Of a DNA stretch of 64,000 bases, positions 7,062 through 53,067 are shown piece after piece. Each line of letters starts with the position of its first letter. Within the stretch, counting starts at the first letter, position 1. The DNA comes from Escherichia phage PECP14. The translations under genes were made by a program, and so were the position numbers. The notes below the pieces were generated by a model that was not told where the DNA came from, made no database searches, and was given only the letters and a program-made list of their open reading frames with translations. Location of the stretch: sequence record OQ870555.1; one strand, written 5' to 3'.

Positions 7062-7064
7062 AAG

Positions 7065-7096: not shown

Positions 7097-7097
7097 A

Positions 7098-35234: not shown

Positions 35235-35235
35235 T

Positions 35236-35478: not shown

Positions 35479-35599
35479 TATAGAAGGCCTGGGTATGAAA
35501 ATACTCGGGCCTTTTCTATCAGAAAATTTTATTTGCCAAATGACTGAGAATAAAGTAAACTATTTCCTTAATCCTGATAATTACAAAAAGGAAAGCCAA

Positions 35600-37930
35600 A
35601 TGAGCCATCGCATCGAAAAAGTAATTAAACGTGACGGTACTGTTCAGGACTTTGCTCCTGAAAAACTCAATGATTGGGCCGCATGGGCATGTAAAGATAC
35701 TGACGTAAGTTGGTCTGCCGTAGTTATGGCTGCCCTGAAAAATCTACCCAAAGGTGTTGTAGACTCCGATACACTCCAAGATGTGTTAATTAAAGCCGCT
35801 GAAGGTCTTATCAAAGACAATCCAGCATATGATACTGTAGCAAAGGAATTACGTCTTGCGCAGATGCGTAAACGCCTATATGATTCCTTCGAACCACCTT
35901 CTCTGCGTTTCTTCCACGATCATATGGTTCGTGTTGGCGCTTGGGAAGACATGAGTGCATGGATTAGCGATGATCAGTTTGACGCTCTGAATCAAGTTAT
36001 TGACCATGATCGCGATCGTTTATTCACCAGTGGTGGACTGAAACAGTTCTTCGACAAGTATTCCCGTCGTAATATTGCAACTGGTGAAATTTATGAAACC
36101 CCGCAGTTTGCCTACATGGGTATGGCAATGGCGATGTTATCTCAACCTAACTGGACAATTCTAGATGCAATCGACCTCTACAATGCAATGTCGCTCCACA
36201 AAATCAACGTTCCTACGCCGCCACTGGTTGGCCTGCGCTCTAGTGACCGTGGATTTGCTAGTTGCTGCCTCGTGGATTCCACTGACACTCTGGATTCAAT
36301 CGACACAGCCGAGCACATCGTCTTCAAAATGGTCGCAGCCAGAGCGGGAATCGGGTATCATCTTGAAAGCCGATCAATTGCTGATCCGGTGCGAAATGGG
36401 GCATTCCCGCATTCCGGAAAACTGCCATATTATCGACACATTGACCGTTCAGTAAAAGCTAACACTCAGCAAACCCGTGGCGGTTCTGCTACTGTGTCTT
36501 ATCCATACTTCGATCCTGAAATCATTCAGTTGATGCAGGTTAAACAGCAACGTGCTACAGACGAGAATAAAATCGATAAAATGGATTACTCTCTGAGCTT
36601 TAACAACCTTCTGTTAAAACGTTACCTGAAAAACGAAGATATTACGCTAATGTCCTACTTCTACGCACCAGAAGTTCATGAAGCGTTTTATGGCGAAGAT
36701 GAGGCTAAGTTTGAAGAAATCTACATGGCAGCGGAGAAACGTGTGGCATCTCTTACAAAGATCGACCACGAAGGGAAAACAATTCCAGCAGCTCCTAGAA
36801 TCTCTGCAAAAGAAATCCTAGATACTTGGTTACGCATCCGTATGGAAACAGGGCGTATGTACGCTCATCATATTGGTGAATCTAACCGTCATGGTAACTT
36901 CCTTGACCCGATTCGTATGACCAACCTTTGTGTAGAGATTACTCAGCCTACTCGTCCATTCCAGCACATTACGGAACTGTACAAAACTGCGGATCAATTA
37001 GATGATATGCGTCCAGAAGATATTGGTGAAGTATCTCTGTGTAACTTAGGTGGTGTTGTACTTGGACGCATGGAATCTCTGGCTGAGTGGGAAAAAACTT
37101 GCTACATCCTACTGAAATTCGTTGATACAATTATTGAAATTCAGGATTATCCGTTCCCAACTATGGAATATACAGCTAAGAAACGTCGTAATGTTGGTAT
37201 TGGCCTGATGAACGCAGCAGGTGCAATGGCAGCAGAAGGTCTGGCTTATGAAGGTATTGAAGCCCGTAACTGGATTCACCGTGAGGCTGAAAAACTGTCT
37301 TACTTCCTGCATAAAGCCTCTGTACGCCTAGCTAAAGAACAGGGTGCATGTGAGTGGTTTGATCGTACTAAACCATCTAAAGGAATTCTGGTAATCGACA
37401 CGTACAAGAAAACTGTTGATGAACTGGTATCCGTAGGTCTAGAAATGGATTGGGAGTCTCTGCGTGCAGATATTCTGAAATATGGTATGCGTAATTCTGT
37501 TCTGACTGCTCAGATGCCAGGAGAAAGTTCTTCTGTTCTGCTAGGAGTTACTAACTCTATCGAACCGCCTCGTAAGATTGTATCTATCAAGGGTAGTGCA
37601 GTGAATAAAGTAATTGCAATTGCTCCAGGTGCAACCGATTGGGAAACGTTAATGAGCTATAAACTGGCTTATGATGTAGATCGTATCGAGTGGATCAAAT
37701 GGGTAGCAACTATGCAGAAATTCTTCAGTCAGTCTATCAGTACGAATATGTACTATGACTACACCAAGTTTGATAATGAAATCATTCCTGGCCCAGTAGT
37801 AGTTCGTGATTTCATGACTGCTGTTAAGTATGGGTGGAAAACTTTCTACTATGCAAACTTCAATACCGCAAATGGTGGAGGTGCTGGAGAAGAAGCAGCC
37901 GGTTGTGCATCCGGCGGTTGTACTATTTAA
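35600..37930 (+). CDS. nrdA: ribonucleoside-diphosphate reductase alpha subunit
   Basis: ATP-cone N-terminus (MSHRIEKVIKRDGTVQDF), catalytic region with NLCVEI; ATG at 35600 with RBS AAAGGAAAG. Confidence 0.9.
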   Translation: MSHRIEKVIKRDGTVQDFAPEKLNDWAAWACKDTDVSWSAVVMAALKNLPKGVVDSDTLQDVLIKAAEGLIKDNPAYDTVAKELRLAQMRKRLYDSFEPPSLRFFHDHMVRVGAWEDMSAWISDDQFDALNQVIDHDRDRLFTSGGLKQFFDKYSRRNIATGEIYETPQFAYMGMAMAMLSQPNWTILDAIDLYNAMSLHKINVPTPPLVGLRSSDRGFASCCLVDSTDTLDSIDTAEHIVFKMVAARAGIGYHLESRSIADPVRNGAFPHSGKLPYYRHIDRSVKANTQQTRGGSATVSYPYFDPEIIQLMQVKQQRATDENKIDKMDYSLSFNNLLLKRYLKNEDITLMSYFYAPEVHEAFYGEDEAKFEEIYMAAEKRVASLTKIDHEGKTIPAAPRISAKEILDTWLRIRMETGRMYAHHIGESNRHGNFLDPIRMTNLCVEITQPTRPFQHITELYKTADQLDDMRPEDIGEVSLCNLGGVVLGRMESLAEWEKTCYILLKFVDTIIEIQDYPFPTMEYTAKKRRNVGIGLMNAAGAMAAEGLAYEGIEARNWIHREAEKLSYFLHKASVRLAKEQGACEWFDRTKPSKGILVIDTYKKTVDELVSVGLEMDWESLRADILKYGMRNSVLTAQMPGESSSVLLGVTNSIEPPRKIVSIKGSAVNKVIAIAPGATDWETLMSYKLAYDVDRIEWIKWVATMQKFFSQSISTNMYYDYTKFDNEIIPGPVVVRDFMTAVKYGWKTFYYANFNTANGGGAGEEAAGCASGGCTI

Positions 37931-37938
37931 TAAAAACA

Positions 37939-37964
37939 AGGAGATCTTCGGGTCTCCTTTTTCT
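37939..37964 (+). terminator. rho-independent terminator after nrdA (UUCG tetraloop)
   Basis: AGGAGATC-TTCG-GGTCTCCT followed by TTTTTC. Confidence 0.7.
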
Positions 37965-37976
37965 TTGAAATTTTAC

Positions 37977-38005
37977 TTGCTAATCGCTACCAGATTTGCT
38001 ATAAT
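37977..38005 (+). promoter_or_regulatory. early promoter module ending 6 nt before the HNH endonuclease ATG
   Basis: TTGCTA-17 nt-TATAAT, then ATCTAT-ATG; implies a leaderless or very short-leader transcript. Confidence 0.6.
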
Positions 38006-38011
38006 ATCTAT

Positions 38012-38509
38012 ATGAAATTAACACAGAGTAGATTAAAAGAGCTAATCTCCTATGACCCTGAAACTGGCGAATTTACCTGGCTCCCAAGAAAAACTTTAGC
38101 AAAGCATTTATGGAACGCTAAAGCAGGAACCTATGATAAATTAGGGTATCTTCGTATAAAAGTTGAAGGAGTTCAATATTTAGCTCATCGCCTAGCCTTC
38201 TTGTATATGACTGGAGAAATACCAGAAGGAAAAATTGACCATAAAGATACTAATCCGTCTAATTGCGCCTGGGATAATCTCCGTGAAGCCACGAGTTCTC
38301 AAAATTCTATGAACTCGTGTGCAAGATCGGATAACCAGCTTGGAATGAAAAATATTCGTGTAAAAGGCACTTCATTTCAGGTTAGGATAGGCAAAGACGG
38401 CAAATCTTATACAAAAACTTTTAAAACCCTAGAAGAAGCTATAGAATGGAGAGACACCAAACTACTAGAACTTCATGGGGACTTTGCAAACAACGGAGAA
38501 GCTAAATGA
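38012..38509 (+). CDS. free-standing HNH homing endonuclease with AP2-type DNA-binding domain
   Basis: 165 aa; HNH core (...LAHRLAF...KIDHKDTNPSNCAWDNL...), AP2-like C-terminus (NIRVKGTSFQVRIGKDGKSYTKTFKTLEEAIEWRD); between nrdA and nrdB, 4-nt overlap with nrdB. Confidence 0.8.
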   Translation: MKLTQSRLKELISYDPETGEFTWLPRKTLAKHLWNAKAGTYDKLGYLRIKVEGVQYLAHRLAFLYMTGEIPEGKIDHKDTNPSNCAWDNLREATSSQNSMNSCARSDNQLGMKNIRVKGTSFQVRIGKDGKSYTKTFKTLEEAIEWRDTKLLELHGDFANNGEAK

Positions 38510-39651
38510 CTACTTTACTTAACTTAGAATGGGATCATACTAACGCTGATCTTTTCCTCGGTGATTCTTTGGGTATCGCAGATTATGTGCGTGTGGCACA
38601 CCCCGAACTAGAGCGATTAGCTCTGTTGCAGCGTTCCCAGTTCTGGACTGAAACTGAAATTAGTCTTGAAGCTGATAAAAAGCAGTGGGGTAATCTCCCA
38701 CGTGATATTCAGGAAATTACTCTCCTGAACTTAGCATGGCAGACCCAAACAGATTCTTTCATTAGCCGTGCTCCTGAAGCAGCTATTATGCCGCTTGTAA
38801 GCCGTCCTGAATTGGAGGGTATGCTCAAGCAGTGGAGCTACTTCGAAGATCTGCACAGCCGTGCGTATAGTAATATTATTCGTAACGTTCTGACTGATCC
38901 AGCAGAATTTATTGATTCTGTAACTAAAAACCAAGAAGCATTTGCACGTATCGCAGATTCTGTTGAACTGTTTGATGAATTGTATCTGTTAGGTCAGTAT
39001 TTCCTTGCAGTACGTGATCATCGTGGTGATAATACTTATCCAGAAACTGAGTTCCCTGAAGTTAAACGTGAAACTCAGGCTAAGCTGTTAGATGCTTACT
39101 TTGCAATCTACGGTCTGGAAGCAATGCAGTTCTACGCATCCTTTGCATGTACCTTTGCTCTAGCAGAGAACGATATTCTGCAAGGTATTGCTAAGAACCT
39201 GCAATTAATCGCTAAAGATGAAGCTCTACATACTCAAATGTCTAAAGCTATCATCCAGATTATGTTCCAGCAGTTTGATAAAGATCTGGTAGACGAAGCA
39301 TTAGCTAAAGCACCAGCACAACTCCTAAAAACTCTGAAAACTGAGATTGAATGGGGTCACTTTATCTTTAAAGGCCGTAGTCTGATTGGTTTGAACGCAG
39401 AACTGCTTGAAGAATACCTTTACTTTGTAGGACGTAACGCATTTATGCACATTGGTGTAGAATGGCCAAGCCACTTACCTGTAATTACTAAGAATCCGAT
39501 TCCGTGGATCATGAACTGGTTGGATACTACTTCTCTACAACCTGCTCCGCAAGAGATTCAGATTGGTGCAGCCTACCGCGTAGGTCAAGTCACAGAAACC
39601 TCTGCTGATACTCTGAAAGATCTTGGCAACGAATTTGAGGGTATGTTCTAA
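38506..39651 (+). CDS. nrdB: ribonucleoside-diphosphate reductase beta subunit
   Basis: 381 aa; diiron/tyrosyl-radical ferritin-like fold (..EDLHSRAYS.., ..KDEALHT..). Confidence 0.9.
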   Translation: MTTLLNLEWDHTNADLFLGDSLGIADYVRVAHPELERLALLQRSQFWTETEISLEADKKQWGNLPRDIQEITLLNLAWQTQTDSFISRAPEAAIMPLVSRPELEGMLKQWSYFEDLHSRAYSNIIRNVLTDPAEFIDSVTKNQEAFARIADSVELFDELYLLGQYFLAVRDHRGDNTYPETEFPEVKRETQAKLLDAYFAIYGLEAMQFYASFACTFALAENDILQGIAKNLQLIAKDEALHTQMSKAIIQIMFQQFDKDLVDEALAKAPAQLLKTLKTEIEWGHFIFKGRSLIGLNAELLEEYLYFVGRNAFMHIGVEWPSHLPVITKNPIPWIMNWLDTTSLQPAPQEIQIGAAYRVGQVTETSADTLKDLGNEFEGMF

Positions 39652-40181
39652 TGATAGCAGCAATCTATGCAACTGGGCCGAATGGGGAGTTCGGCCTCAA
39701 TGGTAAGCTCCCCTGGGGTTCTTTCAAAGAAGAACTAGATATCTTCTATGCTACATTGGATTCTCTAGCACCTGATAATATTATTGTAGGAGCAGGAACT
39801 TGGTTAGCCTTCCCTGAGACTCTGCAAAAAAGAATACTAGGAGATTCTGACCTATTTATTTATGCAAATAGACCACTACCTAACTCTGTAGGATCAGCTA
39901 CACGCATAAGCAACATTGGATACCGTCTGCCTGATTTTCTCAAGGAAGAGGTAACTGTAGTATTAGGGGGAGCAACTCTGCTTCTTGAAATGTATGTCAA
40001 AAATCATCTAGATATGGCGTATATCTCTACTATTACTTCAGCCACACCATTATCCGCTGATGTACATCTGCATCATCATATTACTTTAACTAATTCAATG
40101 GCAACTAGAATGGACTATGTGGCAGGACAGAATGCAGATAAAACGCTTTCATTCTTACAAGAATTGGTGATATTTAAATGA
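39651..40181 (+). CDS. frd: dihydrofolate reductase
   Basis: 176 aa; N-terminal DHFR pattern ([22 protein letters not shown]); lies beside thyA. Confidence 0.75.
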
Positions 40182-41032
40182 AGCAATATATTGAAACTGG
40201 AAAACGTATTCTTGAAGAGGGTGTATGGGTAACGAATCCTAGAACAGGGGTTCGTTGCCTAACCATTATTGATGCAGACTTTACCTTTAACGTAGGGGCG
40301 GGAGAACTGCCGCTAGTAACTACTCGTAAAGCATTTGCTAAACAAGCAATAATGGAAATGATCGGATATCTCCGTGGGTACGACTCAGCAGCACAATTCC
40401 GCGCTATTGGTGTTAATACATGGAATGCTAATGCAAATGAAAATATTGCCTGGCTAGGTAATCCATTCCGTAAAGGCGAGGATGATATGGGACGAGTCTA
40501 TGGTGTTCAAGGACGTCATTGGACTAATTCTGATGGTATGGTATTTGATCAGTTAGCCAAAGTCTATCATAATTTGAAGAAAGGGATTGACGATCGTGGA
40601 GAAATTTTAACTTTTTGGAACCCTGGGGAATTTCGTAAAGGATGCTTACGTCCATGTATGCATACCCATCAATTCTCTATTTTAGGTGATACACTATACC
40701 TAAACTCTTTCCAGAGGTCTAATGATTTCTTGCTGGGCCAAGTATTTAATATGGTGCAATGTTATGCACTTCTAGCTATTATGGCACAGATTACAGGTCT
40801 TAAGCCAGGTATTGCTCGTCAAAAGATTATCAATCTTCATATCTATGAAGATCAGTATAATGTTCTGATGGAGCACAAGCAATTCGATCGTAAACCTTTT
40901 GCATCTCCTACTTTAGAAATCAATCCAAATATCCAAACTTTGGATGATGTATTAACGTGGGTAAATAAGGATGATTTTACTGTTCGTGGCTATGAACACC
41001 ATCCTGCTATTGCATACCCATTCACAGTCTAA
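40178..41032 (+). CDS. thyA: thymidylate synthase
   Basis: 284 aa; ThyA blocks (...[10 protein letters not shown]..., ...SNDFLLG...). Confidence 0.9.
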
Positions 41033-41037
41033 TTCAA

Positions 41038-41062
41038 ATAGCCCTTCGGGGCTATTATATTT
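41038..41062 (+). terminator. rho-independent terminator after thyA (UUCG tetraloop)
   Basis: TAGCCC-TTCG-GGGCTA followed by TTATATTT. Confidence 0.7.
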
Positions 41063-41071
41063 AAATTTCAT

Positions 41072-41100
41072 TTGCTTACTGAGTGAAATTCAAATATAAT
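41072..41100 (+). promoter_or_regulatory. early promoter module
   Basis: TTGCTT-17 nt-TATAAT, then ..ATAAATTGGAGACACTT-ATG. Confidence 0.65.
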
Positions 41101-41124
41101 ATATTTTATAAATTGGAGACACTT

Positions 41125-41379
41125 ATGGGACTCTTTAAAAAGAAAGTTTATTTAACACAAAGTCAAGAACGCAGGTTCTTAGCTCTGTCTCAGTATTACC
41201 ATTTACCTTTCGATCATTTCATAGAACGGGCGTTAGAACAATTCCTAGAAAAGGAATTAAGGGCAATTAGACCTGAACCGCCAAGAGCACCAAATGATGC
41301 ACAGAGAGGTCATCCACGTATCCCACCTATGCCGCCAGTTCCACCAGCGACTAGGGTCATTATAGAAGGTGATAAATAA
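41125..41379 (+). CDS. hypothetical protein, possible ribbon-helix-helix DNA-binding protein with Pro-rich tail
   Basis: ATG at 41125 (MGLFKKKVYLTQSQERRF...) downstream of the promoter; C-terminal PEPPRAPND...PPMPPVPP. Confidence 0.5.
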   Translation: MGLFKKKVYLTQSQERRFLALSQYYHLPFDHFIERALEQFLEKELRAIRPEPPRAPNDAQRGHPRIPPMPPVPPATRVIIEGDK

Positions 41380-41648
41380 TGTCTATTCTTTTATCTGCTT
41401 TAGAAGCAAAGCAAAATACTATTGCTAGTATTAAAAAGGAAGTAATTGATCTGGAATCACTTATCGCCGTAGAAATCGATAAAGCCATTAAAGATAAAGA
41501 ATTTAACTGCCACATCCAGGGACTGACTGAATACTCAGAAAACGCTAGAAATAGCGTTATGCAAAAACTTAGCAAACTAGGTTATGTTGTAGAAGCTAAG
41601 TATGAACAGCGTGAAGGTTTTTGGCTTGAAATTGATTGGAGCAAATAA
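41379..41648 (+). CDS. hypothetical protein
   Basis: 89 aa ORF coupled by TAATG to the upstream gene. Confidence 0.5.
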   Translation: MSILLSALEAKQNTIASIKKEVIDLESLIAVEIDKAIKDKEFNCHIQGLTEYSENARNSVMQKLSKLGYVVEAKYEQREGFWLEIDWSK

Positions 41649-42124
41649 TGTCGGTTTTCCACATATATACAGATGGTGCATGTAAAGGCAATCCTGGTTT
41701 AGGTGCGTGGGGATTTGTTGTCTATAATGATAATGATGATCGTATTGGCTCTAAATCTGGCTTTAGCCCTAAAACTACTAATAACGAAATGGAACTTACT
41801 GCAATTGTAGAAGTTCTTCGTTGGTCTACTAAGAAAGATAATCGTCCAGTAATTATCTACACTGATTCTGCTTACTGCAAAAATGGTATGGAAAGCTGGA
41901 TGTGGTCTTGGCAGAAGAAAGGCTGGAAGAAGGGAGATGGTGAAACTCCTCTCAATTTAGAACTCTGGCAAGAAGCGTTTAAACTAACTCAACAGTATAT
42001 TAATTTCCATGATACTAACCCAACCTTTGTTAAGGTTAAAGGTCACTCAGGTATTCGTGGTAATGAAGAAGTTGATGCTCTATGCAATACTGTAATTACT
42101 GAGCAAGAACTTGATGAGATGTAA
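41648..42124 (+). CDS. rnhA: ribonuclease H (RnhA-like)
   Basis: N-terminus HIYTDGACKGNPG, then ELTAI..., ...YTDS..., ...GHSG...NEEVD; ATG at 41648 with RBS GGAG. Confidence 0.8.
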   Translation: MSVFHIYTDGACKGNPGLGAWGFVVYNDNDDRIGSKSGFSPKTTNNEMELTAIVEVLRWSTKKDNRPVIIYTDSAYCKNGMESWMWSWQKKGWKKGDGETPLNLELWQEAFKLTQQYINFHDTNPTFVKVKGHSGIRGNEEVDALCNTVITEQELDEM

Positions 42125-45731: not shown

Positions 45732-46049
45732 ATGATTTTTCATATTCTGATTGATGATGTGCGTAACCTTCATGGAATGGACATTATCATTCGAACCCCC
45801 GAAGCCGCTGTTGAGTTTCTGAATAAAACCGATACCACAGGTCATTTCGTTTATATGGATAACGATCTGGCTGTAGATGGTATGGAAGGTTATCAAATTC
45901 TTCGTTTACTCCTAGAATTTGGTCAGAGACCCAAGAAAGTGGTACTAGTAACCTCGAACCCAGTAGCTAAAGAGACCATGCGTAATGATCTCTTAGACGA
46001 AGGGTATCAAGAAAGCCCTAATCGTATTGAGTACGATTGGCCGGAGTAA
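45732..46049 (+). CDS. hypothetical protein, possible receiver (CheY-like) fold
   Basis: 105 aa; alternating hydrophobic/acidic pattern (IFHILIDDV...YMDNDLAVDGMEGYQILRLL...VVLVTSNP) resembles a stand-alone receiver domain. Inference only. Confidence 0.5.
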   Translation: MIFHILIDDVRNLHGMDIIIRTPEAAVEFLNKTDTTGHFVYMDNDLAVDGMEGYQILRLLLEFGQRPKKVVLVTSNPVAKETMRNDLLDEGYQESPNRIEYDWPE

Positions 46050-46054
46050 ATAAA

Positions 46055-46504
46055 ATGAAGGCAGCTTTGCTTTTAATAGCTGCCCTAACCTATAGCTTCA
46101 ATAGTCATGCGACCTACGACTCAAAGCAGATTGATTGCATTGCAAAAAATATCTACTTCGAAGCACGAGGTGAGGGCACTAAAGGAATGATCGCAGTTGC
46201 ACAGGTTACTAAAAACCGTGTTAACTCTGGTACTTTTCCTGATTCTTACTGTAAAGTAGTATATCAGTCTAACCAGTTCTCTTGGGTGGCCAAGAGACCA
46301 AAAGTTGATAAAACCGATGAGGCTTGGCAAGTTGCTAAGAATTTAGCTAGAGTGATATACTACGTTGATTTACCACAAGATCCAACACATGGAGCGTTAT
46401 ACTTCCATAGTGGTAAAGATAAACCGTACTGGACAAAGAAGTTTAAGAAAACAACGAAGATTCAAGGCCATACGTTTTACAAGCCTGTGGTTAAGAAAAC
46501 TTAA
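46055..46504 (+). CDS. secreted cell-wall hydrolase, SleB/Hydrolase_2-like
   Basis: ATG at 46055; signal peptide MKAALLLIAALTYSFNSHA; domain ...CIAKNIYFEARGEGTKGMIAVAQVTKNR...SYCKVVYQSNQFSW.... Confidence 0.65.
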   Translation: MKAALLLIAALTYSFNSHATYDSKQIDCIAKNIYFEARGEGTKGMIAVAQVTKNRVNSGTFPDSYCKVVYQSNQFSWVAKRPKVDKTDEAWQVAKNLARVIYYVDLPQDPTHGALYFHSGKDKPYWTKKFKKTTKIQGHTFYKPVVKKT

Positions 46505-48057: not shown

Positions 48058-48132
48058 CGGGGTGTAGTCTAAGGGATAGGCAGGAGTCTTCTAAATTCCT
48101 TTATGCAGGTTCGAATCCTGTCACCTCGGCCA
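48058..48132 (+). tRNA. tRNA-Arg (anticodon UCU)
   Basis: Hand-folded: acceptor CGGGGTG/CACCTCG, anticodon arm GGAGT-CTTCTAA-ATTCC, T-arm GCAGG-TTCGAAT-CCTGT, encoded CCA. Confidence 0.75.
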
Positions 48133-48370: not shown

Positions 48371-49315
48371 ATGTTTACTAAAAACACTAAAGAACTGACT
48401 TCCGATCAAAAAGTAATTCGTACTATTAAACGTTGGGGTGTTGGTGCTGTAGTTGGTCTTGGCGCTCTTATTCTGGCTCTCAATTCCTATACAGTTGTTC
48501 AGGACGGTACGGTTAAAACTCAGACTTTCCTGGGTAAAGTTAGTCCTAATCCTGTATTGCCGGGGTTCCATATTGTCAACCCATTCGCCTCTTTTGATAC
48601 TTTTAGTACGAAAGATATTTCTATGAAACTGGATAAACTTCAGGTTCCTAGCCAGGATAAGTTTAAGTCTACAGTTGACATTACCGTTATGTTGCAGTTT
48701 GATGGTGCTAAAGCTCCTATGAACCGTGTTAACGCAGGTACTCAGGATCAAGCTCTGAACAAGTACGTTGAAGAGAAGATGCTGTCTACGATTCGTGAGT
48801 TTGGTAAGTCTGTACCAAAAGCACAAGATCTGTTCGACGCTAAGATTCAGGCTCAACTGCAAACCGCTATTCAGCAAGAAGTAGAAGAGTATGCGCGTCC
48901 TTATGGTTACACCGTTAAGCAAGTATTCCTTCAGGATATTACTCTGCCACCGGTAATCATGGAACAGGTACAGAACACCAAAGTTCGTGAAGAACAAGTT
49001 AACGCTGCAAAAGCTGAACTGGCTCGTGTTGAACAAGAAGCACAGCAGAAAGTTAAGCAAGCTGAGGCAGATCGTTCCGCTCGTGAAAACATGGCAGTAG
49101 CTAACGAACGTGACGCAGATGCTAAACTGTACGCAGCTAAGAAAGAAGCTGAAGCTAACGCCGCTCTGCAACGTACCATTACTCCTGAAATGATTCGTTG
49201 GAAGCAGCTGGAAGTTGAAATGCTTCGTGCTGAAAAATACCAAGGGGGTGTACCACAGACTGTTGTCGGTACTGGCTACGATGGTCAAATGATCATGGAT
49301 ATGCGTAACAAGTAA
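48371..49315 (+). CDS. SPFH/band-7 (stomatin/prohibitin-like) membrane protein
   Basis: 314 aa; N-terminal TM helix (WGVGAVVGLGALILAL), SPFH body, C-terminal Ala/Glu/Gln-rich coiled coil; RBS AAGGAAAT. Confidence 0.75.
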   Translation: MFTKNTKELTSDQKVIRTIKRWGVGAVVGLGALILALNSYTVVQDGTVKTQTFLGKVSPNPVLPGFHIVNPFASFDTFSTKDISMKLDKLQVPSQDKFKSTVDITVMLQFDGAKAPMNRVNAGTQDQALNKYVEEKMLSTIREFGKSVPKAQDLFDAKIQAQLQTAIQQEVEEYARPYGYTVKQVFLQDITLPPVIMEQVQNTKVREEQVNAAKAELARVEQEAQQKVKQAEADRSARENMAVANERDADAKLYAAKKEAEANAALQRTITPEMIRWKQLEVEMLRAEKYQGGVPQTVVGTGYDGQMIMDMRNK

Positions 49316-49338: not shown

Positions 49339-49375
49339 AAGCCCGCGTTTCCTTCGAGAGCGCGGGCTTTTCTGT
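49339..49375 (+). terminator. rho-independent terminator after the SPFH gene
   Basis: AAGCCCGCG-(13-nt loop)-CGCGGGCTT followed by TTCTGTATTT. Confidence 0.7.
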
Positions 49376-49385
49376 ATTTAAGGCA

Positions 49386-49430
49386 AAAGAAAAAGCCCCT
49401 TACCTTTCGGCAGGGGCTTTTGTTTTTTGG
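49386..49430. terminator. bidirectional terminator between convergent plus- and minus-strand genes
   Basis: AAAAAGCCCCT-(loop)-AGGGGCTTTTGTTTTTT, A-run upstream and T-run downstream. Confidence 0.7.
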
Positions 49431-49635
49431 TTTAGAACCATACTCTCTTGTTACAACAACCACTCATACGGGAGACCAATCTTGACTGAAAATCTACTCT
49501 AGGGGGCAGGATAAGAGTAGGCTTAAAGGCAAACGGATTGAACACCGGTATTTGTGTAAACATTGCTGGAGAGCAACAACGTGCTACAGGTATTGGGCAG
49601 CACGAAACAGATTTTCTGCAACACATAATTCCTCC

Positions 49636-50052
49636 TTAGGAGTTATTACCGCCATTTTGAGCTTTTGCAACTTGGCTTTGGCAGAAGCTATTAAACTTAC
49701 CCATAAGTGCTACAAGCTGTTTCCCATCCTCTGTCTTTGCGAAGTCTTCGAAAAGGGCTAGTACTGCCTGTCCTTCCGCAGAAACCTGCGGTTGTTGGGT
49801 TTGTTGCTGAACTTGCTGCTGAGGCACCTGTTGCTGCATTTGTTGAGGCATTTGCGACTGCCCGCTCATTTGCTGCATCATTTGCATAGGACTCACACTT
49901 CCAGGGTTTTGCTGGAGTTGCTGCTGCATCTGTTGCGCTTCTGCTAAACGCTGTTGCAACTGTTGTAGGTAAGGGTTATCCAGACCCGGAATGGGCTGCT
50001 GAGAGCCCATTGGTTGATTAAATCCGTTGTTCACAAAACCATATTTACTCAT
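49636..50052 (-). CDS. Gln-rich low-complexity protein
   Basis: 138 aa, about 35 percent Gln; RBS GGGGAGGAG before the ATG. Confidence 0.5.
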   Translation of the reverse strand: MSKYGFVNNGFNQPMGSQQPIPGLDNPYLQQLQQRLAEAQQMQQQLQQNPGSVSPMQMMQQMSGQSQMPQQMQQQVPQQQVQQQTQQPQVSAEGQAVLALFEDFAKTEDGKQLVALMGKFNSFCQSQVAKAQNGGNNS

Positions 50053-50074
50053 AATGGGCTCCTCCCCTTAAAGA

Positions 50075-51076
50075 TTAGGCTGGTACTTTAGCCTGTAGAG
50101 CTGCTAGAGTCTGAGTAATTGCACCCAGGCTTACAGCGATTTGATTGATTACCTGACCGTTTGCACCGCTACCTGCAGCGATTGCTTCACGCAGACGGCA
50201 TTCATTCAGTTCGTCTTGGATACGCGCAGTAGTTACACCAGCAATCGCAGTCTGAAGTTCGCAGCAGCACTCAGCAAGCTGACGTTCGATAGCGTTCTGG
50301 TTAGCACACATCTGAGCCTGAACAGCGGCAAACTGGTTGTTAGTCTGAAGAGACTGCTGGAAAGCAATCTGGGCAGAGTCAAACTTGTCTTGTGCACGAG
50401 CGATCTGGTTAGCAGCGAAAGCTTGATCCATCTGGCGAGAAAGATCGAACTGACCCTGAATAACGTTACGAGTTTCCTGACAGATCTGGTTGGACAGGTT
50501 AGCACCAGTACCATACACAGTAGTCAGAATCTGTTGAGTGCTAGAAGCTTGAGCAGCACCTACACCATTAACAGCGCTCAGAACAGCACCAGTACCTTGA
50601 TTCGCTTCGGTACGAGCAGTGTTGATTGCAGCTAGAATACTTGCAGTATCCTGGTTAGATAGGATAGCATCCACAGCAGTTCCCTCAGCGGCAACACCAG
50701 CACCACGTCCGAAACCACCGAAACCACCGAATCCGCCTGTTAATAGAGCACCAATCAGGATAGCTCCGAATAGACCCATACCTTCACCGCCGAAAGCACC
50801 ATTTGCTACTGCTGGGTAACCACCCATCAGACCTGGGAAGCCGCTAGTGAATACGTTTACTGGTTCTTGCATTTTATGTTTCCTATGTTTATGACAGCCC
50901 TCATGGTCGTCATCTTCATCATCTTCATCGTCATCATCGTGATCACGATGTTTCTTTTCGTAGGCCTTGACCTTCTCCCACTTATGTTTGTCTGATTCCT
51001 CATGACGTCTCAGTTCTGCTGCGACTTCACTGACGGTCTCAGGTTTCTTAGTTGCTTCTTCTGTCATTTTTGACAC
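50075..51076 (-). CDS. acidic His/Asp-rich protein with glycine-zipper membrane segment and Gln/Ala-rich C-terminal region
   Basis: 333 aa; HRDHDDDDEDDEDDDHEGCHKHRKHK; LFGAILIGALLTGGFGGFGGFG; C-terminal ECCCELQ and CRLRE; RBS AGGAGGTG. Confidence 0.55.
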   Translation of the reverse strand: MSKMTEEATKKPETVSEVAAELRRHEESDKHKWEKVKAYEKKHRDHDDDDEDDEDDDHEGCHKHRKHKMQEPVNVFTSGFPGLMGGYPAVANGAFGGEGMGLFGAILIGALLTGGFGGFGGFGRGAGVAAEGTAVDAILSNQDTASILAAINTARTEANQGTGAVLSAVNGVGAAQASSTQQILTTVYGTGANLSNQICQETRNVIQGQFDLSRQMDQAFAANQIARAQDKFDSAQIAFQQSLQTNNQFAAVQAQMCANQNAIERQLAECCCELQTAIAGVTTARIQDELNECRLREAIAAGSGANGQVINQIAVSLGAITQTLAALQAKVPA

Positions 51077-51273
51077 CTCCTAGTATATAGAAAATGTGTG
51101 TCTCTTTGATCACTCATCTATAACATATACTTTACACTACCCCAGCGAAAATGTCAAGGGGTCTTTAAAAATTGCCCCCGGATTTTTAGTGGGATAACAA
51201 TTTCTGGACCTCACCACTCACCTGCTACCCTTAAGTGCCCTGCGATTTTCCACTAAAAAGTTTAAAAATTCGA

Positions 51274-51302
51274 TTGCTTGAATGCTAAATTCTCTGTATA
51301 AT
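51274..51302 (+). promoter_or_regulatory. early promoter module upstream of the NadR-like gene
   Basis: TTGCTT-17 nt-TATAAT, then ..ATAAATTTGAGAGAGGAATCAAAT-ATG. Confidence 0.65.
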
Positions 51303-51332
51303 ATATTTATAAATTTGAGAGAGGAATCAAAT

Positions 51333-52388
51333 ATGATTAAGACTGGTCTAGTAATTGGTAAGTTCGCACCATTAACGCGTGGTCATATTAACCTAATAAA
51401 CACAGCAGCAACTATGTGTGAACGAGTTATTGTTGTAGTTAGTCATGATAATCGTTGGCTGGATAAGCAGAACACACGTGATCAGGAAGTATTACAGTTA
51501 AAGAATCGACTTCGTTGGTTAGAACAAACTTACGCGGATATTGAGCACGTTTCGGTAGAGTACATTATTGAAGATGATATTCCTGAATATCCGAATGGTT
51601 GGCCGGAATATGCTAGAATCCTTAATGAAAATTATGGACATTTGCCTGAGATCACCATTTTCTCTAGCGAACTAGACTATGATGCAGAATATAAGAAATA
51701 TCTGCCGAAGTTTGGTCATTATATTGTAGATTCTGATCGGACTCGTGTTCCAATCTCAGCTACAATGATTCGTAATGATCTTATGAAGTATTGGGAGTTT
51801 CTTCCTAGCGTAGTTCGTAAAGATTACGTGCGTAAGGTTGTAATCATTGGGACTGAAAGCTCAGGCAAAACAACTTTAACAAAGTACCTTGCGAAATTAT
51901 ATAATACTTCGTGGGTAGAAGAATATGGTCGTACTTACTGCGAAGTTGATCTAGTTGGTAATGAAGAACTCCTGACTAGCGAGGACTATAATAAAATTGC
52001 ATTCAGGCACAAAGAGCTAGAGTTTGAGGCAGAACGTACTGCAAATAAGATCATGTTTGTAGACACAAATGCTTTCATTACAGAGTTTTATCACAGACTT
52101 TACGAGCATCGTAAAAATCCGGTTGTAACAGCTATTGCTAAAGAAGAGCATTATGATTTAGTTATAGTTTTAGCACCTACTGTTAAGTGGGTAGATGATG
52201 GTTTACGTATTAACTCCGATCGTTCAATTACTTCTGAACTGTTCGAGCAGATGAAGAAAGAATTTCCTAATCAGTTTCCAGAAGGGCGTACTGTATATAT
52301 TGACTCCCCGGACTATAAGGTTCGTATGGACGAAGCAGTAAACGCAGTAGACTGGCTGATTCATCACTTTAACGTTGGAGAGTTTTAA
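51333..52388 (+). CDS. nadR: bifunctional NMN adenylyltransferase / ribosylnicotinamide kinase (NadR-type)
   Basis: N-terminus GLVIGKFAPLTRGHINLI (nucleotidyltransferase H-x-G-H); central P-loop VVIIGTESSGKTTL (kinase); ATG at 51333. Confidence 0.8.
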   Translation: MIKTGLVIGKFAPLTRGHINLINTAATMCERVIVVVSHDNRWLDKQNTRDQEVLQLKNRLRWLEQTYADIEHVSVEYIIEDDIPEYPNGWPEYARILNENYGHLPEITIFSSELDYDAEYKKYLPKFGHYIVDSDRTRVPISATMIRNDLMKYWEFLPSVVRKDYVRKVVIIGTESSGKTTLTKYLAKLYNTSWVEEYGRTYCEVDLVGNEELLTSEDYNKIAFRHKELEFEAERTANKIMFVDTNAFITEFYHRLYEHRKNPVVTAIAKEEHYDLVIVLAPTVKWVDDGLRINSDRSITSELFEQMKKEFPNQFPEGRTVYIDSPDYKVRMDEAVNAVDWLIHHFNVGEF

Positions 52389-52389
52389 T

Positions 52390-53067
52390 ATGACTAACTA
52401 TCTTGTAAATGACTTTAAAAACTGGAAACCTTTGGAATATCTGTGGCTGTTTATAGCAGTCGCCTTTATTAGTTTAGCTAACTATAATGGTACAGCTCTA
52501 GATTGGGCTACTGCAATAACCAACGTGGTTTGTGTTATTCTGGTTGCAAAAGGACGTGTTTCCAACTATATTTGGGGCTTAGTTGGTGTTCTTACCTATG
52601 GTATTACAGCTTTAAACGCAGATCTTTATGGTAACGCTGCACTAAACCTGCTATACTACGTTCCTATGCAGTTTTATGGAATGTACTTATGGCATAAAAA
52701 TAAGCCAAGTAATCTGCCAGATGTTCCAACTAAGGTTCTGACTAAAGCCCAAGCTCTGCTGACTCTAGGGATTCTAGCAGTAGCCACGTTAGGGTATGGT
52801 AGTTTCTTAGCTACTACGGCTGATCCATTCCCAATGTTGGATGCATTTACTGCGGTAGGTAGTGTGATCGCTATGTGGCTTATGGTTAAGCAGTATGCCG
52901 AGCAGTGGCTGATCTGGATTGCTATTAACATTGGTACTGTATATATTTGGCTTGTAACTGCCCAGTCTACGGGTGCTTCTTATGCAATCCTAGCAATGTG
53001 GCTGGTGTTCTTAGGTAACTCTATTATGGGAGCCTATAAAGGCTACTTTGTAAGAGTTAACAAATAA
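52390..53067 (+). CDS. pnuC: nicotinamide riboside transporter (PnuC-like)
   Basis: About 225 aa with multiple TM helices and a WxxxxP-type region; start overlaps the nadR stop (TAATATG). Confidence 0.7.
   Translation: MTNYLVNDFKNWKPLEYLWLFIAVAFISLANYNGTALDWATAITNVVCVILVAKGRVSNYIWGLVGVLTYGITALNADLYGNAALNLLYYVPMQFYGMYLWHKNKPSNLPDVPTKVLTKAQALLTLGILAVATLGYGSFLATTADPFPMLDAFTAVGSVIAMWLMVKQYAEQWLIWIAINIGTVYIWLVTAQSTGASYAILAMWLVFLGNSIMGAYKGYFVRVNK

What the first reader, a model, noticed from the sequence alone, without database searches (positions are those of the whole stretch)
49636..51270. Minus-strand island of two low-complexity proteins (Gln-rich; His/Asp-rich with glycine zipper) inside the plus-strand early/tRNA region
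Two convergently oriented genes sit between a bidirectional terminator (49386-49430) and the nadR promoter. The 333-aa product combines an acidic His/Asp-rich tract, a Gly-zipper membrane segment and a Gln/Ala-rich C-terminal region with Cys pairs. The 138-aa product is about 35 percent Gln. The composition suggests a metal-binding or membrane-perturbing protein with a partner, which is speculative.
Basis: partly seen in the sequence, partly recalled or inferred. Interest (0 to 1): 0.6.

Follow-up and report, generated by a model that had tools for sequence, protein, structure and literature searches.

The report
Mobile three-gene phage membrane-rod cassette
The "island" is a real, conserved and horizontally mobile three-gene operon of T5-like phages (T5 genes 077-079) that encodes a membrane-anchored, roughly 22 nm coiled-coil rod with an invariant triple-cysteine motif plus two small partner proteins; its function is unknown, it is dispensable in the laboratory, and it most likely acts on the host cell envelope.

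Summary
The island holds three co-directional genes, not two. They are A (330 aa, ATG at 51067), B (138 aa; 27.5% Gln, not 35%) and an overlooked Cys-pair-rich peptide C (64 aa, 49432-49626). All three have strong ribosome-binding sites. They run from a sigma-70 early-type promoter (T5 "P12") to the bidirectional terminator.

The window is an Epseptimavirus (99.6% identical to Salmonella phage Sepoy), and the genes equal T5.077-079. A and B are under purifying selection (dN/dS about 0.13). The cassette lies inside the T5st0 deletion, so it is accessory. The same A-B-C order recurs in N4-like, lambdoid, KPP23-like and other phages, often next to lysis genes.

A belongs to a large phage-only family (at least 476 clusters at 50% identity, including crAss-like "spike protein" ORFs). 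The family shares a Gly/aromatic hydrophobic segment, one 150-165-residue helix and a CCC motif. The His/Asp tract and the Gln richness are lineage-specific decoration.

Best guess, at low confidence: a disulfide-locked, spanin-like or class-I-fusion-like envelope device with cytoplasmic partners. Exclusion, cytoplasmic metal/thiol and virion-fibre readings remain open.

The parts
51129..51176 (-). Promoter of the cassette (equals T5 promoter P12). It has -35 TTGACA (51157-51152), a 17-nt spacer and -10 TAAAGT (51134-51129). An A/T-rich tract (AATTTTTAAAGA) lies upstream, and ATATG follows the -10.
   Evidence: The consensus scan scored 10 of 12 matches. The sequence is nearly identical to the annotated T5 P12. 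T5 early promoters carry ATATT in the discriminator (PMC7472727); this one has ATATG.
50075..51067 (-). Gene A (330 aa; T5.077 / Sepoy_120; PHROG 8119). It starts at ATG 51067, preceded by the Shine-Dalgarno sequence GGAGG at 51080-51076. The ORF-list GTG at 51076 lies inside that Shine-Dalgarno sequence.
   Evidence: phrog_8119, E 1.5e-195; dN/dS 0.13.
50945..51034 (-). A residues 12-41: a charged N-terminal helix (VSEVAAELRRHEESDKHKWEKVKAYEKKHR). It is part of an N-terminal extension found in the T5-type proteins that come with B and C (also, in unrelated form, in the A-like P0095, which lacks them).
   Evidence: AlphaFold2 pLDDT is above 90 for this helix.
50873..50953 (-). A residues 39-65: the acidic/His-rich tract. 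It is predicted disordered and is lineage-specific.
50870..50872 (-). Conserved internal Met66, immediately before the family-wide motif QEPVNVF. It is a possible second translation start that would give a short isoform matching the N-terminus of crAss-type relatives (inferred).
   Evidence: A Met is present within 1-3 residues of this position in all 11 T5-type sequences. Shine-Dalgarno-like purine motifs lie 6-11 nt upstream in 6 of 8 loci.
50693..50848 (-). A residues 74-125: the Gly-rich (38% Gly) hydrophobic segment. Its core is GLFGAILIGALLTGGFGGF (residues 98-116, nt 50720-50776), flanked by a conserved acidic residue on the N-side and a conserved Arg on the C-side. It is the putative membrane anchor or insertion peptide.
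   Evidence: The hhalign match between T5-type and crAss-type profiles centres here (probability 98.3%).
50087..50539 (-). A residues 177-327: one predicted uninterrupted alpha-helix of about 150 residues (about 22 nm), rich in Ala, Gln, Asn and Thr. Its last 100 residues are the most conserved part of T5-type proteins (QACxNQNALQMQIAECCCE...RIQDEL...NGQVINQIAVSLGAITQTLAALQAK).
   Evidence: AlphaFold2 is (pLDDT 76-90 over residues 210-300). The crAss-type relative gives a helix 125-287 with pLDDT above 90.
50261..50269 (-). The Cys267-Cys268-Cys269 triplet of A, the hallmark of the whole family.
   Evidence: CCC is present in 162 of 180 family proteins, in the context [LI][AC]xCCC[ED]. It is invariant in the T5-type alignment and nearly invariant in the crAss-type alignment.
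49636..50052 (-). Gene B (138 aa; T5.078 / Sepoy_121; PHROG 7894). It has a conserved helix YLQQLQQRLAEAQQMQQQL, a variable Gln/Pro/Met-rich linker (residues about 48-88, nt 49789-49911) and a conserved C-terminal domain EGQAVLALFEDFAKTEDGKQLVxxMGKFNSFCQS (nt 49660-49788). Shine-Dalgarno sequence: GGGGAGGAG.
   Evidence: E 2.3e-80; dN/dS 0.13. The GenBank name "cAMP-dependent protein kinase catalytic subunit" has no support in Pfam.
49432..49626 (-). Sequence: MCCRKSVSCCPIPVARCCSPAMFTQIPVFNPFAFKPTLILPPRVDFQSRLVSRMSGCCNKRVWF. It has four CC pairs, 9 basic residues against 1 acidic, is rich in Pro and Phe, and ends in an aromatic residue. Shine-Dalgarno sequence: AAGGAGGA.
   Evidence: A peptide of 49-91 aa starting MCC, MCGC or MSCNC, with 0-1 acidic residues, follows B in all lineages examined.
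49386..49430 (.). Bidirectional intrinsic terminator. The stem is GCCCCT...AGGGGC (49395-49417), with T-runs on both strands. It begins two bases after the stop codon of C.
   Evidence: Read directly from the sequence. It is annotated as an [quoted passage not shown] in T5 and as a terminator in Sepoy. The simple scan did not list it.

Best explanation
SHOWN. The island is a self-contained accessory operon, A-B-C (equal to T5.077-079). It has its own sigma-70 early-type promoter and ends at the bidirectional terminator. The same cassette, in the same gene order, has moved between unrelated phage groups. A is the T5-type branch of a large phage-only family. The family is defined by a Gly/aromatic-rich hydrophobic segment, a single alpha-helix of 150-165 residues (22-24 nm) and an invariant Cys-Cys-Cys motif.

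INFERRED.
- A is held in the inner membrane by the Gly-rich segment, with its charged N-terminal extension in the cytoplasm.
- Its helix assembles into a parallel coiled-coil rod in the periplasm, locked by interchain disulfides at the CCC and other conserved Cys. A rod of this length is about the width of a Gram-negative periplasm.
- In architecture it works like an i-spanin or the fusion-peptide-plus-HR1 part of a class I viral fusion protein, that is, a device that bridges or perturbs the envelope membranes.
- B and the basic, CC-pair peptide C have no export signals. Every A with B and C has an N-terminal extension (acidic in most lineages, His/Asp-rich only in T5-likes). I therefore propose that they are cytoplasmic partners that bind or regulate that extension.
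- A conserved internal start codon may add a short isoform, as in holin/antiholin pairs.
- The physiological role would be an accessory envelope function late in infection: assisting or timing lysis, or remodelling the envelope. It is not the primary spanin.
For: Real, expressed-type genes:
- Strong ribosome-binding sites on all three genes.
- Promoter with TTGACA-17-TAAAGT, identical to T5 P12.
- dN/dS of 0.13 for A and B.

Mobile cassette. A-B-C occurs in:
- T5-likes;
- Pseudomonas phage KPP23;
- an N4-like contig carrying a virion RNA polymerase;
- two divergent contigs of 57 and 114 kb;
- a lambdoid contig;
- a GC-rich phage.

Family size and unity:
- 476 clusters with E up to 1e-3.
- CCC present in 162 of 180 proteins.
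- hhalign of T5-type against crAss-type: probability 98.3%, E 2.6e-14.
- PHROG cross-hit with E 6e-8 over nearly the full length.

Rod:
- AlphaFold2 helices 177-327 and 125-287 with pLDDT above 90.

Fusion-like architecture:
- A crAss-type profile searched against all PDB sequences returns only coronavirus S2 (fusion-peptide/HR1 region) and influenza HA2 (residues 6-88) among its top 60 hits. E-values are marginal, 0.007-0.08.
- Window A contains GLFGAI. From my own knowledge, not a tool result, this is the start of the HA2 fusion peptide.

Link to lysis genes:
- ABC directly follows spanin-endolysin-spanin in L042, and an A-like gene directly precedes an M23 peptidase, a holin and a transglycosylase in L044.
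- ABC abuts holin/lysozyme/Rz in the lambdoid contig.
- A lies within 1-2 kb of holin/endolysin genes in crAss-like cr116_1 and cr4_1.

Host range and partners:
- All identified hosts are diderm bacteria (Enterobacteria, Pseudomonas, Bacteroides); four records name an archaeal host, Methanomassiliicoccales.
- B and C co-occur with the N-terminal extension of A in all nine lineages.

Background knowledge: conserved Cys along a straight helix can only pair between chains, as in lambda Rz (Berry et al. 2013, from memory).
Against: - T5-like phages, the lambdoid contig and L042 already carry canonical Rz-like spanins (PMC6813399, PMC11664485). A spanin-type role would therefore be redundant.
- In T5-likes the cassette has an early-type promoter and is not in the lysis cassette.
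- It is dispensable. It lies inside the T5st0 deletion, and a lab variant of Bas33 lost a ~10-kb region of hypothetical genes and tRNAs that the paper likens to a T5 (T5Mos) deletion; I did not map it to the cassette (PMC13250531 supplement).
- Membrane topology is not established. Flanking charges are sparse, and the conserved acidic-N/Arg-C flanks would favour the opposite orientation for a short isoform.
- B and C lack signal peptides, so they cannot meet a periplasmic rod before the membrane is breached.
- Proximity to lysis cassettes is also what one expects of morons, and it is absent in T5-likes, KPP23, the N4-like contig, vir215, csAssE-Sib and C3_41T2LP.
- The matches to fusion proteins are marginal, are absent for the T5-type profile, and could reflect shared Asn/Gln/Ala-rich heptad composition.
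- Fold searches returned nothing.
Confidence: 0.33

Rival explanations
1. Moron-type protective function. The cassette would be an autonomously expressed accessory unit whose membrane protein blocks genome entry of other phages (superinfection exclusion) or counters a host envelope-linked defence. B and C would be cofactors.
For: - The cassette has its own promoter and terminator and sits on the strand opposite its neighbours.
- It has been transferred among unrelated phages and sits in variable regions next to tRNA clusters.
- In the lambdoid contig it lies in the classical moron position between the Q antiterminator and the lysis genes.
- It is dispensable and prone to loss in the laboratory.
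- About half of the phage records that match the 2-kb region carry it whole (217 of 400).
- The early-type promoter would give expression soon after infection.
Against: - There is no similarity to any known exclusion or anti-defence protein, and PADLOC gave nothing.
- In crAss-like phages and L044 the A-type gene is co-oriented within late structural/lysis operons and is widely conserved. That is not moron-like.
- It is essentially absent from prophages: no hit in 185,579 representative genomes (one degenerate pattern) and none in 5,426 complete E. coli genomes.
Confidence: 0.22
2. Cytoplasm-facing assembly. A would insert N-out/C-in (or as a hairpin), so that rod, B and C share the cytoplasm. 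The invariant CCC of A, the conserved Cys of B and the CC/CxC motifs of C would then form a metal-thiolate or redox-active site, or nucleate a membrane-attached scaffold or condensate.
For: - None of the three proteins has a signal peptide.
- The stretch preceding the hydrophobic core (the N-tail of a short isoform and of crAss-type proteins) carries almost no positive charge, while a conserved Arg follows the hydrophobic core.
- Peptide C starts MCC, MCGCGC or MSCNCGC, and some crAss-type tails end CGCGC or CNC, which resembles metallothionein motifs.
- The Gly/Phe, Gln-rich and Tyr/Gly-rich tracts are typical of self-associating low-complexity regions.
Against: - The long charged N-terminal extension of T5-type A cannot cross the membrane, so the long isoform at least must be N-in.
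- No match to any metal-binding family was found in Pfam or NCBIfam.
- The His-rich tract is not conserved.
- Three consecutive Cys in a helix cannot chelate one ion within a single chain.
Confidence: 0.15
3. Virion fibre or decoration protein, as implied by the GenBank names "outer capsid protein/viral fiber" and "spike protein/glycoprotein" given to crAss-type relatives.
For: - A long coiled-coil rod is typical of fibres.
- In crAss-like genomes the gene lies between the small terminase and capsid genes.
Against: - T5st0, which lacks the cassette, makes infectious particles (the use of T5st0 as a standard laboratory strain is from my own knowledge).
- The cassette moves among phages with podovirus and siphovirus virions.
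- It has an early-type promoter.
- In KPP23 the homologue is not among the proteins labelled virion proteins.
- There is no sequence match to any chain of a solved phage virion.
- A hydrophobic Gly/Trp/Phe segment is unusual for a fibre.
Confidence: 0.07

Closest known systems
Two-component spanins (lambda Rz/Rz1 type)
   Same: - A phage-encoded protein with an N-proximal membrane segment followed by a long coiled coil about as long as the periplasm is wide.
- Conserved Cys that could give interchain disulfides.
- Found only in phages of double-membrane hosts.
- Repeatedly adjacent to lysis genes.
   Different: - No HMM match to any spanin family.
- No outer-membrane lipoprotein partner: neither B nor C has a signal peptide or lipobox.
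- No embedded or overlapping gene pair.
- A is twice the size of Rz and low in charged residues.
- It coexists with canonical spanins.
- It has an early-type promoter in T5-likes and is dispensable.
Class I viral fusion proteins (influenza HA2, coronavirus S2, syncytin): fusion peptide plus HR1
   Same: - A Gly-rich hydrophobic peptide (GLFGAI...) followed by a long Asn/Gln/Ala-rich helix.
- A Cys cluster in the helical region.
- The crAss-type profile finds only these proteins at the top of a PDB-wide search.
- This similarity is presumably the origin of the "spike protein/glycoprotein" label in crAss genome records (my inference; I did not check how the label was assigned).
   Different: - E-values are marginal (0.007-0.08) and there is no hit for the T5-type profile.
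- There is no C-terminal transmembrane anchor, no recognisable HR2 fold-back in the models and no receptor-binding subunit.
- Convergence of composition cannot be excluded.
T4-type class III holin T, with antiholins RI/RIII, and dual-start holin/antiholin pairs (lambda S105/S107)
   Same: - One membrane segment with a cytoplasmic N-terminal part and a large, Cys-containing C-terminal part.
- Small cytoplasmic partner proteins.
- A conserved internal Met that could give two isoforms.
   Different: - No sequence similarity to any holin family.
- T5-likes have their own holin elsewhere.
- Dual initiation is only inferred.
PHROG 8119 / PHROG 7894 / PHROG 16490 (families of unknown function)
   Same: A and B are full-length members of PHROG 8119 and 7894. 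crAss-type relatives are PHROG 16490.
   Different: These are labels without function. The link between 8119 and 16490, the third gene and the cassette structure are not recorded in the PHROG rows returned by these searches.

Membership tests
PHROG 8119 (A) and PHROG 7894 (B) | Full-length match to the family profile HMM | tested here: met
   A scores E 1.5e-195 over 4-333 against profile positions 1-332. B scores E 2.3e-80 over 1-138 against 1-139.
Two-component spanin (Rz/Rz1) | i-spanin: an N-terminal transmembrane domain followed by a periplasmic coiled-coil domain | tested here: inconclusive
   A hydrophobic segment (Kyte-Doolittle 1.72) and a 150-residue predicted helix are present. Topology and periplasmic location were not determined. 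A also has a 65-97-residue N-terminal extension that Rz lacks.
Two-component spanin (Rz/Rz1) | o-spanin partner: a small outer-membrane lipoprotein with a signal peptide and a lipobox Cys | tested here: not met
   B starts MSKYGFVNNGFNQ and C starts MCCRKSVSCCPIPV. Neither has a hydrophobic signal sequence or a lipobox.
Two-component spanin (Rz/Rz1) | Sequence membership in a spanin family (Pfam Phage_lysis, PHROG Rz-like spanins) | tested here: not met
   No such hits for A, B or C. Genuine Rz-like spanins were recognised by the same tools next door in L042 and L013.
Class I viral fusion protein | A Gly-rich hydrophobic fusion peptide followed by a long HR1 helix | tested here: met
   GLFGAILIGALL within a 38% Gly stretch, and long helices in both models. 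This is a resemblance in architecture only.
Class I viral fusion protein | An HR2 that folds back, plus a C-terminal transmembrane anchor | tested here: not met
   The models show one straight helix. T5-type A ends at LAALQAKVPA, and crAss-type proteins end in a disordered Pro/Tyr/Gly/Trp tail without a hydrophobic helix.
Class I viral fusion protein | Statistically significant sequence or profile similarity | tested here: inconclusive
   For the crAss-type profile, all of the best 60 PDB hits are CoV S2 or HA2, but with E 0.007-0.08. The T5-type profile gives none. Foldseek gives none.
Holin / antiholin | Match to a holin family, and location in the lysis cassette | tested here: not met
   No holin hits in Pfam or PHROG. 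The holin of T5-likes is elsewhere.
Holin / antiholin | Dual-start motif giving two isoforms | tested here: inconclusive
   A conserved internal Met with Shine-Dalgarno-like motifs in 6 of 8 loci. Acid-rich codons produce such motifs by chance, and there are no expression data.
cAMP-dependent protein kinase catalytic subunit (GenBank name of B in Sepoy and others) | Protein kinase domain | tested here: not met
   Pfam gives only sub-threshold low-complexity hits and no kinase domain. The name is most likely a Gln-run artefact.
   The His/Asp tract is not conserved, and the only hit is a weak ZIP-loop match (E 0.036, below cut-off). The CCC of A and the CC/CxC motifs of C are conserved, but no family match exists. 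Metal binding itself cannot be tested here.

The most novel reading that the evidence does not exclude
The A family would be a previously unrecognised class of phage membrane-fusion or envelope-bridging protein. It would be a trimeric, disulfide-ringed coiled-coil rod with an N-terminal fusion-peptide-like anchor. It would be shared from T5 to crAss-like gut phages and possibly be truly related to the fusion-peptide/HR1 module of class I fusion proteins of animal viruses. In proteobacterial phages it would have been split into a regulated three-protein cassette, with a basic Cys-pair peptide standing in for the aromatic C-terminal tail.
Probability: 0.1. Interest if true: 0.85.

Novelty: new variant of a known kind. 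Interest (0 to 1): 0.6.

Why it matters
T5 is a classical model phage, yet T5.077-079 have no assigned function in the T5 records examined here, and a full-text search for their locus tags found no paper. This work adds the following:
- They form a three-gene cassette that travels between T5-like, N4-like, lambdoid and Pseudomonas phages.
- Protein A links them to a very large, unannotated family in crAss-like gut phages, at least 476 clusters at 50% identity.
- The family has a clear signature: a Gly-rich hydrophobic peptide, a 22-24 nm helix and an invariant CCC.
- The signature gives a testable envelope-centred hypothesis.

If A is a fusion-like or spanin-like device, it would add a new component to the lysis or entry toolkit of phages of Gram-negative bacteria, and would explain the "spike protein" ORFs of Crassvirales. 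If it is an exclusion or anti-defence module, it is a new one carried by phages that are being developed for therapy and biocontrol.

The experiments are easy, because natural deletion mutants (T5st0) and genetic tools for T5 already exist.

Tried and rejected
- Pfam, NCBIfam and PADLOC scans of A, B, C and of 98 family members found no family. The only results were a sub-threshold ZIP-loop hit, single stray hits to Baculo_PEP_C and DUF4116, and a weak ZorA-tail hit.
- PDB sequence searches with the T5-type protein and T5-type profiles returned only low-complexity matches such as Pex5, a BoNT linker and the DnaJ Gly-rich region.
- Foldseek of both AlphaFold2 models against PDB and BFVD found nothing with E below 0.1. 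A single long helix is not informative for fold search.
- Scans of IMG/VR and JGI metagenomes with degenerate patterns recovered only T5-like loci.
- The scan of representative bacterial genomes found nothing. No copy was found in complete E. coli genomes.
- A profile of the C peptides against 5.8 billion proteins recovered only cassette-linked peptides.
- A search for expression data failed. The one T5-like RNA-seq and proteome dataset found (Bas33, PMC13250531) used a phage variant lacking a ~10-kb region of hypothetical genes and tRNAs that probably includes the cassette (not mapped), so I did not pursue it.
- Virion proteomics papers were uninformative for these genes. AKFV33 identified only 4 gel bands. 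The gene-strand blocks given for phiR2-01 show no opposite-strand island in the early block, so it probably lacks the cassette.
- Searching the literature for T5.077, T5.078 and T5.079 found no paper.
- "Primary spanin" was rejected, because T5-likes, L013 and L042 have Rz-like spanins.
- "Non-coding or chance ORFs" was rejected on dN/dS, ribosome-binding sites and cross-lineage conservation.
- A global heptad register was not found in the long helix. Periodicity peaks weakly at 3.5-3.6 residues, so the oligomeric state is not inferred.
- Rfam found no RNA in the island.
Full report
**1. Where we are.**
The 2-kb region around the finding is 99.6% identical to Salmonella phage Sepoy (Demerecviridae, Epseptimavirus). 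It matches 400 phage records, and 217 of them cover at least 80% of it. The neighbours are an SPFH/band-7 gene upstream on the + strand and a nadR-like NMN adenylyltransferase and pnuC downstream on the + strand. The window is therefore the early/tRNA region of a T5-like phage.

**2. Checking the observation.**
Both ORFs are present at the stated coordinates. The compositional features of the large protein are real:
- a tract with 10 Asp, 3 Glu and 6 His in 28 residues;
- a 52-residue stretch that is 38% Gly, containing GLFGAILIGALLTGGFGGF;
- a C-terminal 205 residues rich in Ala (20%) and Gln (13.7%).

Several details are wrong.
- The GTG at 51076 sits inside the Shine-Dalgarno sequence GGAGGTG. 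The start is ATG 51067, giving 330 aa, as in the Sepoy annotation.
- The small protein is 27.5% Gln, not about 35%.
- The large protein has a Cys triplet and four single Cys, not Cys pairs.
- The two genes are co-directional with each other.
- A third minus-strand gene was missed. It lies at 49432-49626, encodes 64 aa, has its own AAGGAGG ribosome-binding site, and ends two bases before the terminator.

In T5 the three genes are annotated T5.077, T5.078 and T5.079 (T5p075-077 in AY734508). They lie between promoter P12 and an [quoted passage not shown].

**3. Are they genes?**
The evidence says yes.
- The open frame of A is longer than any frame in 300 shuffles of the region.
- Against 26 T5-like loci, A and B have a median dN/dS of 0.13.
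- C has too few substitutions among T5-likes to judge (dN/dS about 0.55 at dS about 0.08). However, a peptide with the same peculiar properties follows B in every lineage I could examine.

The C peptides share these properties:
- they start MCC, MCGCGC or MSCNCGC;
- they have further CC pairs;
- they have 4-9 basic and 0-1 acidic residues;
- they are rich in Pro, Phe, Ser and Thr;
- they contain an FNPF-like motif;
- most end in an aromatic residue.

In KPP23 the annotated ORF072 is in the wrong frame; the MCC peptide is in another frame. In the N4-like contig, C overlaps the end of B.

**4. Transcription unit.**
A sigma-70-type promoter lies on the minus strand at 51157-51129: TTGACA, 17 nt, TAAAGT. 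An A/T-rich tract lies upstream. The sequence is almost base-for-base that of T5 P12. T5 early promoters are reported to share ATATT just downstream of the -10 (PMC7472727); this promoter has ATATG. The cassette therefore looks early-type, but I found no direct expression data. The only T5-like RNA-seq and proteome dataset I located used a phage variant that had lost a ~10-kb region of hypothetical genes and tRNAs, probably including the cassette; I did not map it.

**5. Accessory and mobile.**
GenBank record AY734508 is the segment missing from the heat-stable mutant T5st0 (wild-type coordinates 33667-41891). It contains the cassette, which sits at 38064-39671 in NC_005859. A Bas33 laboratory stock also lost about 10 kb of tRNA and hypothetical genes, "comparable" to a T5 (T5Mos) deletion according to the paper. 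The cassette is thus dispensable for growth on laboratory E. coli.

The same A-B-C order occurs in the following phages.

| Phage or contig | Context |
|---|---|
| Pseudomonas siphovirus KPP23 (and RSP) | 62-kb genome |
| N4-like contig, 71 kb | Virion RNA polymerase present; again beside a tRNA cluster |
| Contigs of 57 and 114 kb | Opposite-strand islands, 42-47% identical A |
| Lambdoid contig | Between the Q antiterminator and holin/lysozyme/Rz |
| GC-rich phage L042 | Directly after spanin-endolysin-spanin |

I found no copy in one-per-species bacterial genomes (one degenerate pattern) or in 5,426 complete E. coli genomes.

**6. Protein A and its family.**
A word-indexed search found only 33 relatives. 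A profile search of 1.84 billion cluster representatives found 476 clusters with E up to 1e-3 and 108 with E up to 1e-10, nearly all 250-340 aa. Most are of the type seen in crAss-like gut phages (PHROG 16490). GenBank crAss records label these "spike protein/glycoprotein" or "outer capsid protein/viral fiber". A few are in viruses assigned to Methanomassiliicoccales.

T5-type and crAss-type proteins are homologous. hhalign gives probability 98.3% and E 2.6e-14, and a PHROG cross-hit scores E 6e-8 over almost the full length.

Features shared by the family:
- a conserved N-terminal motif, M-x-EPVNVF in T5-type and M..K.YVFP in crAss-type;
- a Gly/aromatic-rich hydrophobic segment;
- a long helical region rich in Asn, Gln and Ala;
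- the motif [LI][AC]xCCC[ED], present in 162 of 180 proteins;
- an "LQAKV" motif.

T5-type proteins add an N-terminal extension of 37-73 residues and stop at LQAKV. crAss-type proteins have no such extension. Instead they continue into a tail of about 50 residues (QPNTVPVxYPNL...YGYGYG..FWG), which in some ends CGCGC or CNC.

No Pfam, NCBIfam or PADLOC family matches any of 98 members tested.

**7. Structure.**

| Model | Overall confidence | Main elements |
|---|---|---|
| Window A | Mean pLDDT 62 | Confident helix 12-41; disordered acidic and Gly-rich regions; helix 139-168; one helix 177-327 (pLDDT 76-90 over 210-300) |
| crAss-type member P0041 | Mean pLDDT 74 | Short helices 63-120; one helix 125-287 at pLDDT above 90; disordered tail |

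A helix of 150-165 residues is 22-24 nm long. From general knowledge, that is about the inner-to-outer membrane distance of Gram-negative bacteria. Fold searches are uninformative for such a shape.

**8. Resemblance to fusion proteins.**
A profile of 76 crAss-type sequences, searched against all PDB sequences, gave coronavirus S2 (fusion-peptide-proximal region plus HR1) or influenza HA2 (residues 6-88, that is, fusion peptide plus the long helix) as every one of its best 60 hits. E-values were 0.007-0.08. A single sequence gave syncytin-2 and haemagglutinin as weak hits. This similarity is probably the source of the "spike" label in crAss genome records, though I did not check how that label was assigned.

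The T5-type profile gives no such hits. The scores are marginal, and HR1 regions share the same Asn/Gln/Ala-rich heptad composition. I therefore treat this as a resemblance in architecture, not as evidence of family membership. The hexapeptide GLFGAI in window A equals the start of the HA2 fusion peptide; that comparison is from memory and may be coincidence.

**9. Proteins B and C.**
B has three parts:
- an invariant-Leu helix, YLQQLQQRLAEAQQMQQQL;
- a linker whose length (about 10-60 residues) and composition vary by lineage, Gln/Met-rich in T5-likes and Pro-rich in the N4-like and lambdoid versions;
- a conserved C-terminal domain of about 40 residues with an invariant Cys (E93, T107, G110, K111, L113, K119, F120, C124, Q125).

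The Gln richness is therefore linker decoration. The GenBank name "cAMP-dependent protein kinase catalytic subunit" has no support.

Neither B nor C has a signal peptide. Two correlations stand out.
- Every A that comes with B and C has the N-terminal extension.
- Every A without B and C, except the atypical P0095, has the aromatic/Gly/Cys tail, whose composition resembles that of C.

C may therefore be a split-off tail, or B and C may be partners of the N-terminal extension. Both ideas are inferences.

**10. Genomic company.**

Lysis genes are close in these contexts:
- directly adjacent in L042, L044 and L013;
- within 1-2 kb in crAss-like cr116_1 and cr4_1.

No such link exists in T5-likes, KPP23, the N4-like contig, vir215, csAssE-Sib or C3_41T2LP. 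In T5-likes the only nearby candidate is a SleB-like hydrolase 3 kb away.

The enrichment is suggestive. It is confounded by conserved synteny among crAss phages, and by the fact that morons also collect beside lysis cassettes.

**11. Mechanism.**
I commit, at about one chance in three, to an envelope-acting device.
- A is anchored in the inner membrane with its charged N-terminus in the cytoplasm.
- Its helix forms a parallel coiled-coil rod in the periplasm, cross-linked through the CCC and other conserved Cys. Conserved Cys along a straight helix can pair only between chains, as in lambda Rz.
- The rod works like an i-spanin or a fusion-peptide/HR1 module.
- B and C act on the cytoplasmic extension.
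- A conserved internal Met with Shine-Dalgarno-like motifs may give a short isoform.

It is not the primary spanin, because T5-likes, L013 and L042 have Rz-like spanins.

The rivals are:
- a moron-type exclusion or anti-defence function;
- a cytoplasm-facing thiol/metal or scaffold assembly, which is favoured by the missing export signals and by the acidic-N/Arg-C flanks of the hydrophobic core;
- a virion fibre.

Topology is the key unknown. Flanking charges are too sparse to decide it.

**12. Novelty and verdict.**
The ORFs are known only as hypothetical proteins and as PHROGs of unknown function. A full-text search for the three T5 locus tags found no paper. The following appear to be new:
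- the third gene;
- the cassette and its mobility;
- the link to the large crAss-type family;
- the CCC-rod signature;
- the demotion of the His/Asp and Gln tracts to lineage-specific decoration.

The finding is real and moderately interesting. Its function remains open, and it can be tested directly with existing T5 deletion mutants.

Noticed in passing
L003 (Pseudomonas phage KPP23, AB910392) 6969-7151 +: The annotated ORF072 (6971-7165) is in the wrong frame. The conserved peptide MCCNQPVPQCCGPF... is encoded in a different frame of the same stretch.
   Followed up: yes
window 49636-50052 (-), and the GenBank records of Sepoy, STWB21, HMD-P2 and others: Protein B is named "cAMP-dependent protein kinase catalytic subunit" in several GenBank records. 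It has no kinase domain, so the name is most likely an artefact of Gln-run matches that has spread between annotations.
   Followed up: yes
window 50870-50872 (-), Met66 of A: An internal Met is conserved in all T5-type A proteins, exactly where crAss-type relatives begin. Shine-Dalgarno-like motifs lie upstream in 6 of 8 loci, so a second start and a short isoform are possible.
   Followed up: partly
window 49339-49369 (+): A second hairpin terminator (AAGCCCGCG...CGCGGGCTT, followed by a T-run) ends the SPFH gene. It contains GCGC. T5 records place a "major DNA single-chain interruption" (nick consensus Pu-GCGC) at the equivalent position, between ter1 and the SPFH gene.
   Followed up: no
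window 49432-51067, compared with T5 (L002): Synonymous divergence from T5 is about 0.45 in A but only about 0.08 in B and C. This suggests a recombination boundary inside the cassette.
   Followed up: no
AY587007 (T5), hit H78: In this T5 record, gene A is split into ORF072 and ORF073 (two tblastn pieces). This is probably a frameshift or sequencing difference relative to AY543070 and AY734508.
   Followed up: no
window 51282-53067 (+): A nadR-like NMN adenylyltransferase/ribosylnicotinamide kinase gene and a pnuC transporter gene (NAD salvage auxiliary genes) follow the island. They have a typical T5 early promoter (TATAAT followed by ATATT). T5 itself has a primase-like gene at this position instead.
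   Followed up: partly
window 48371-49315 (+) and 46037-46504 (+): An SPFH/band-7 protein (annotated "lipoprotein" or "membrane protease") and a secreted SleB-like cell-wall hydrolase (Hydrolase_2, with a signal peptide) lie upstream of the island. The hydrolase also appears about 4.5-5 kb from the cassette in the divergent contigs L011 and L012.
   Followed up: no
L045 (NC_092586, Caudoviricetes sp. vir215) 4878-5759, and BK063680 (vir335): A-family members (PHROG 16490) occur in gut viruses assigned to the archaeal order Methanomassiliicoccales. One of them is a temperate genome with an integrase and a reverse transcriptase.
   Followed up: no
L009 7652-8593, L010 7677-8771, L004 8926-9870: In crAss-like phages the A-type gene is always followed by a protein of about 135-180 aa that looks beta-rich from its sequence, and then by a protein of about 170 aa starting MFSNL..G (PHROG 28898). 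This may be a separate conserved triad.
   Followed up: no
window 48058-48129 (+): A tRNA gene (Rfam RF00005, 49 bits; tRNA-Arg in Sepoy) lies just upstream of the SPFH gene.
   Followed up: no
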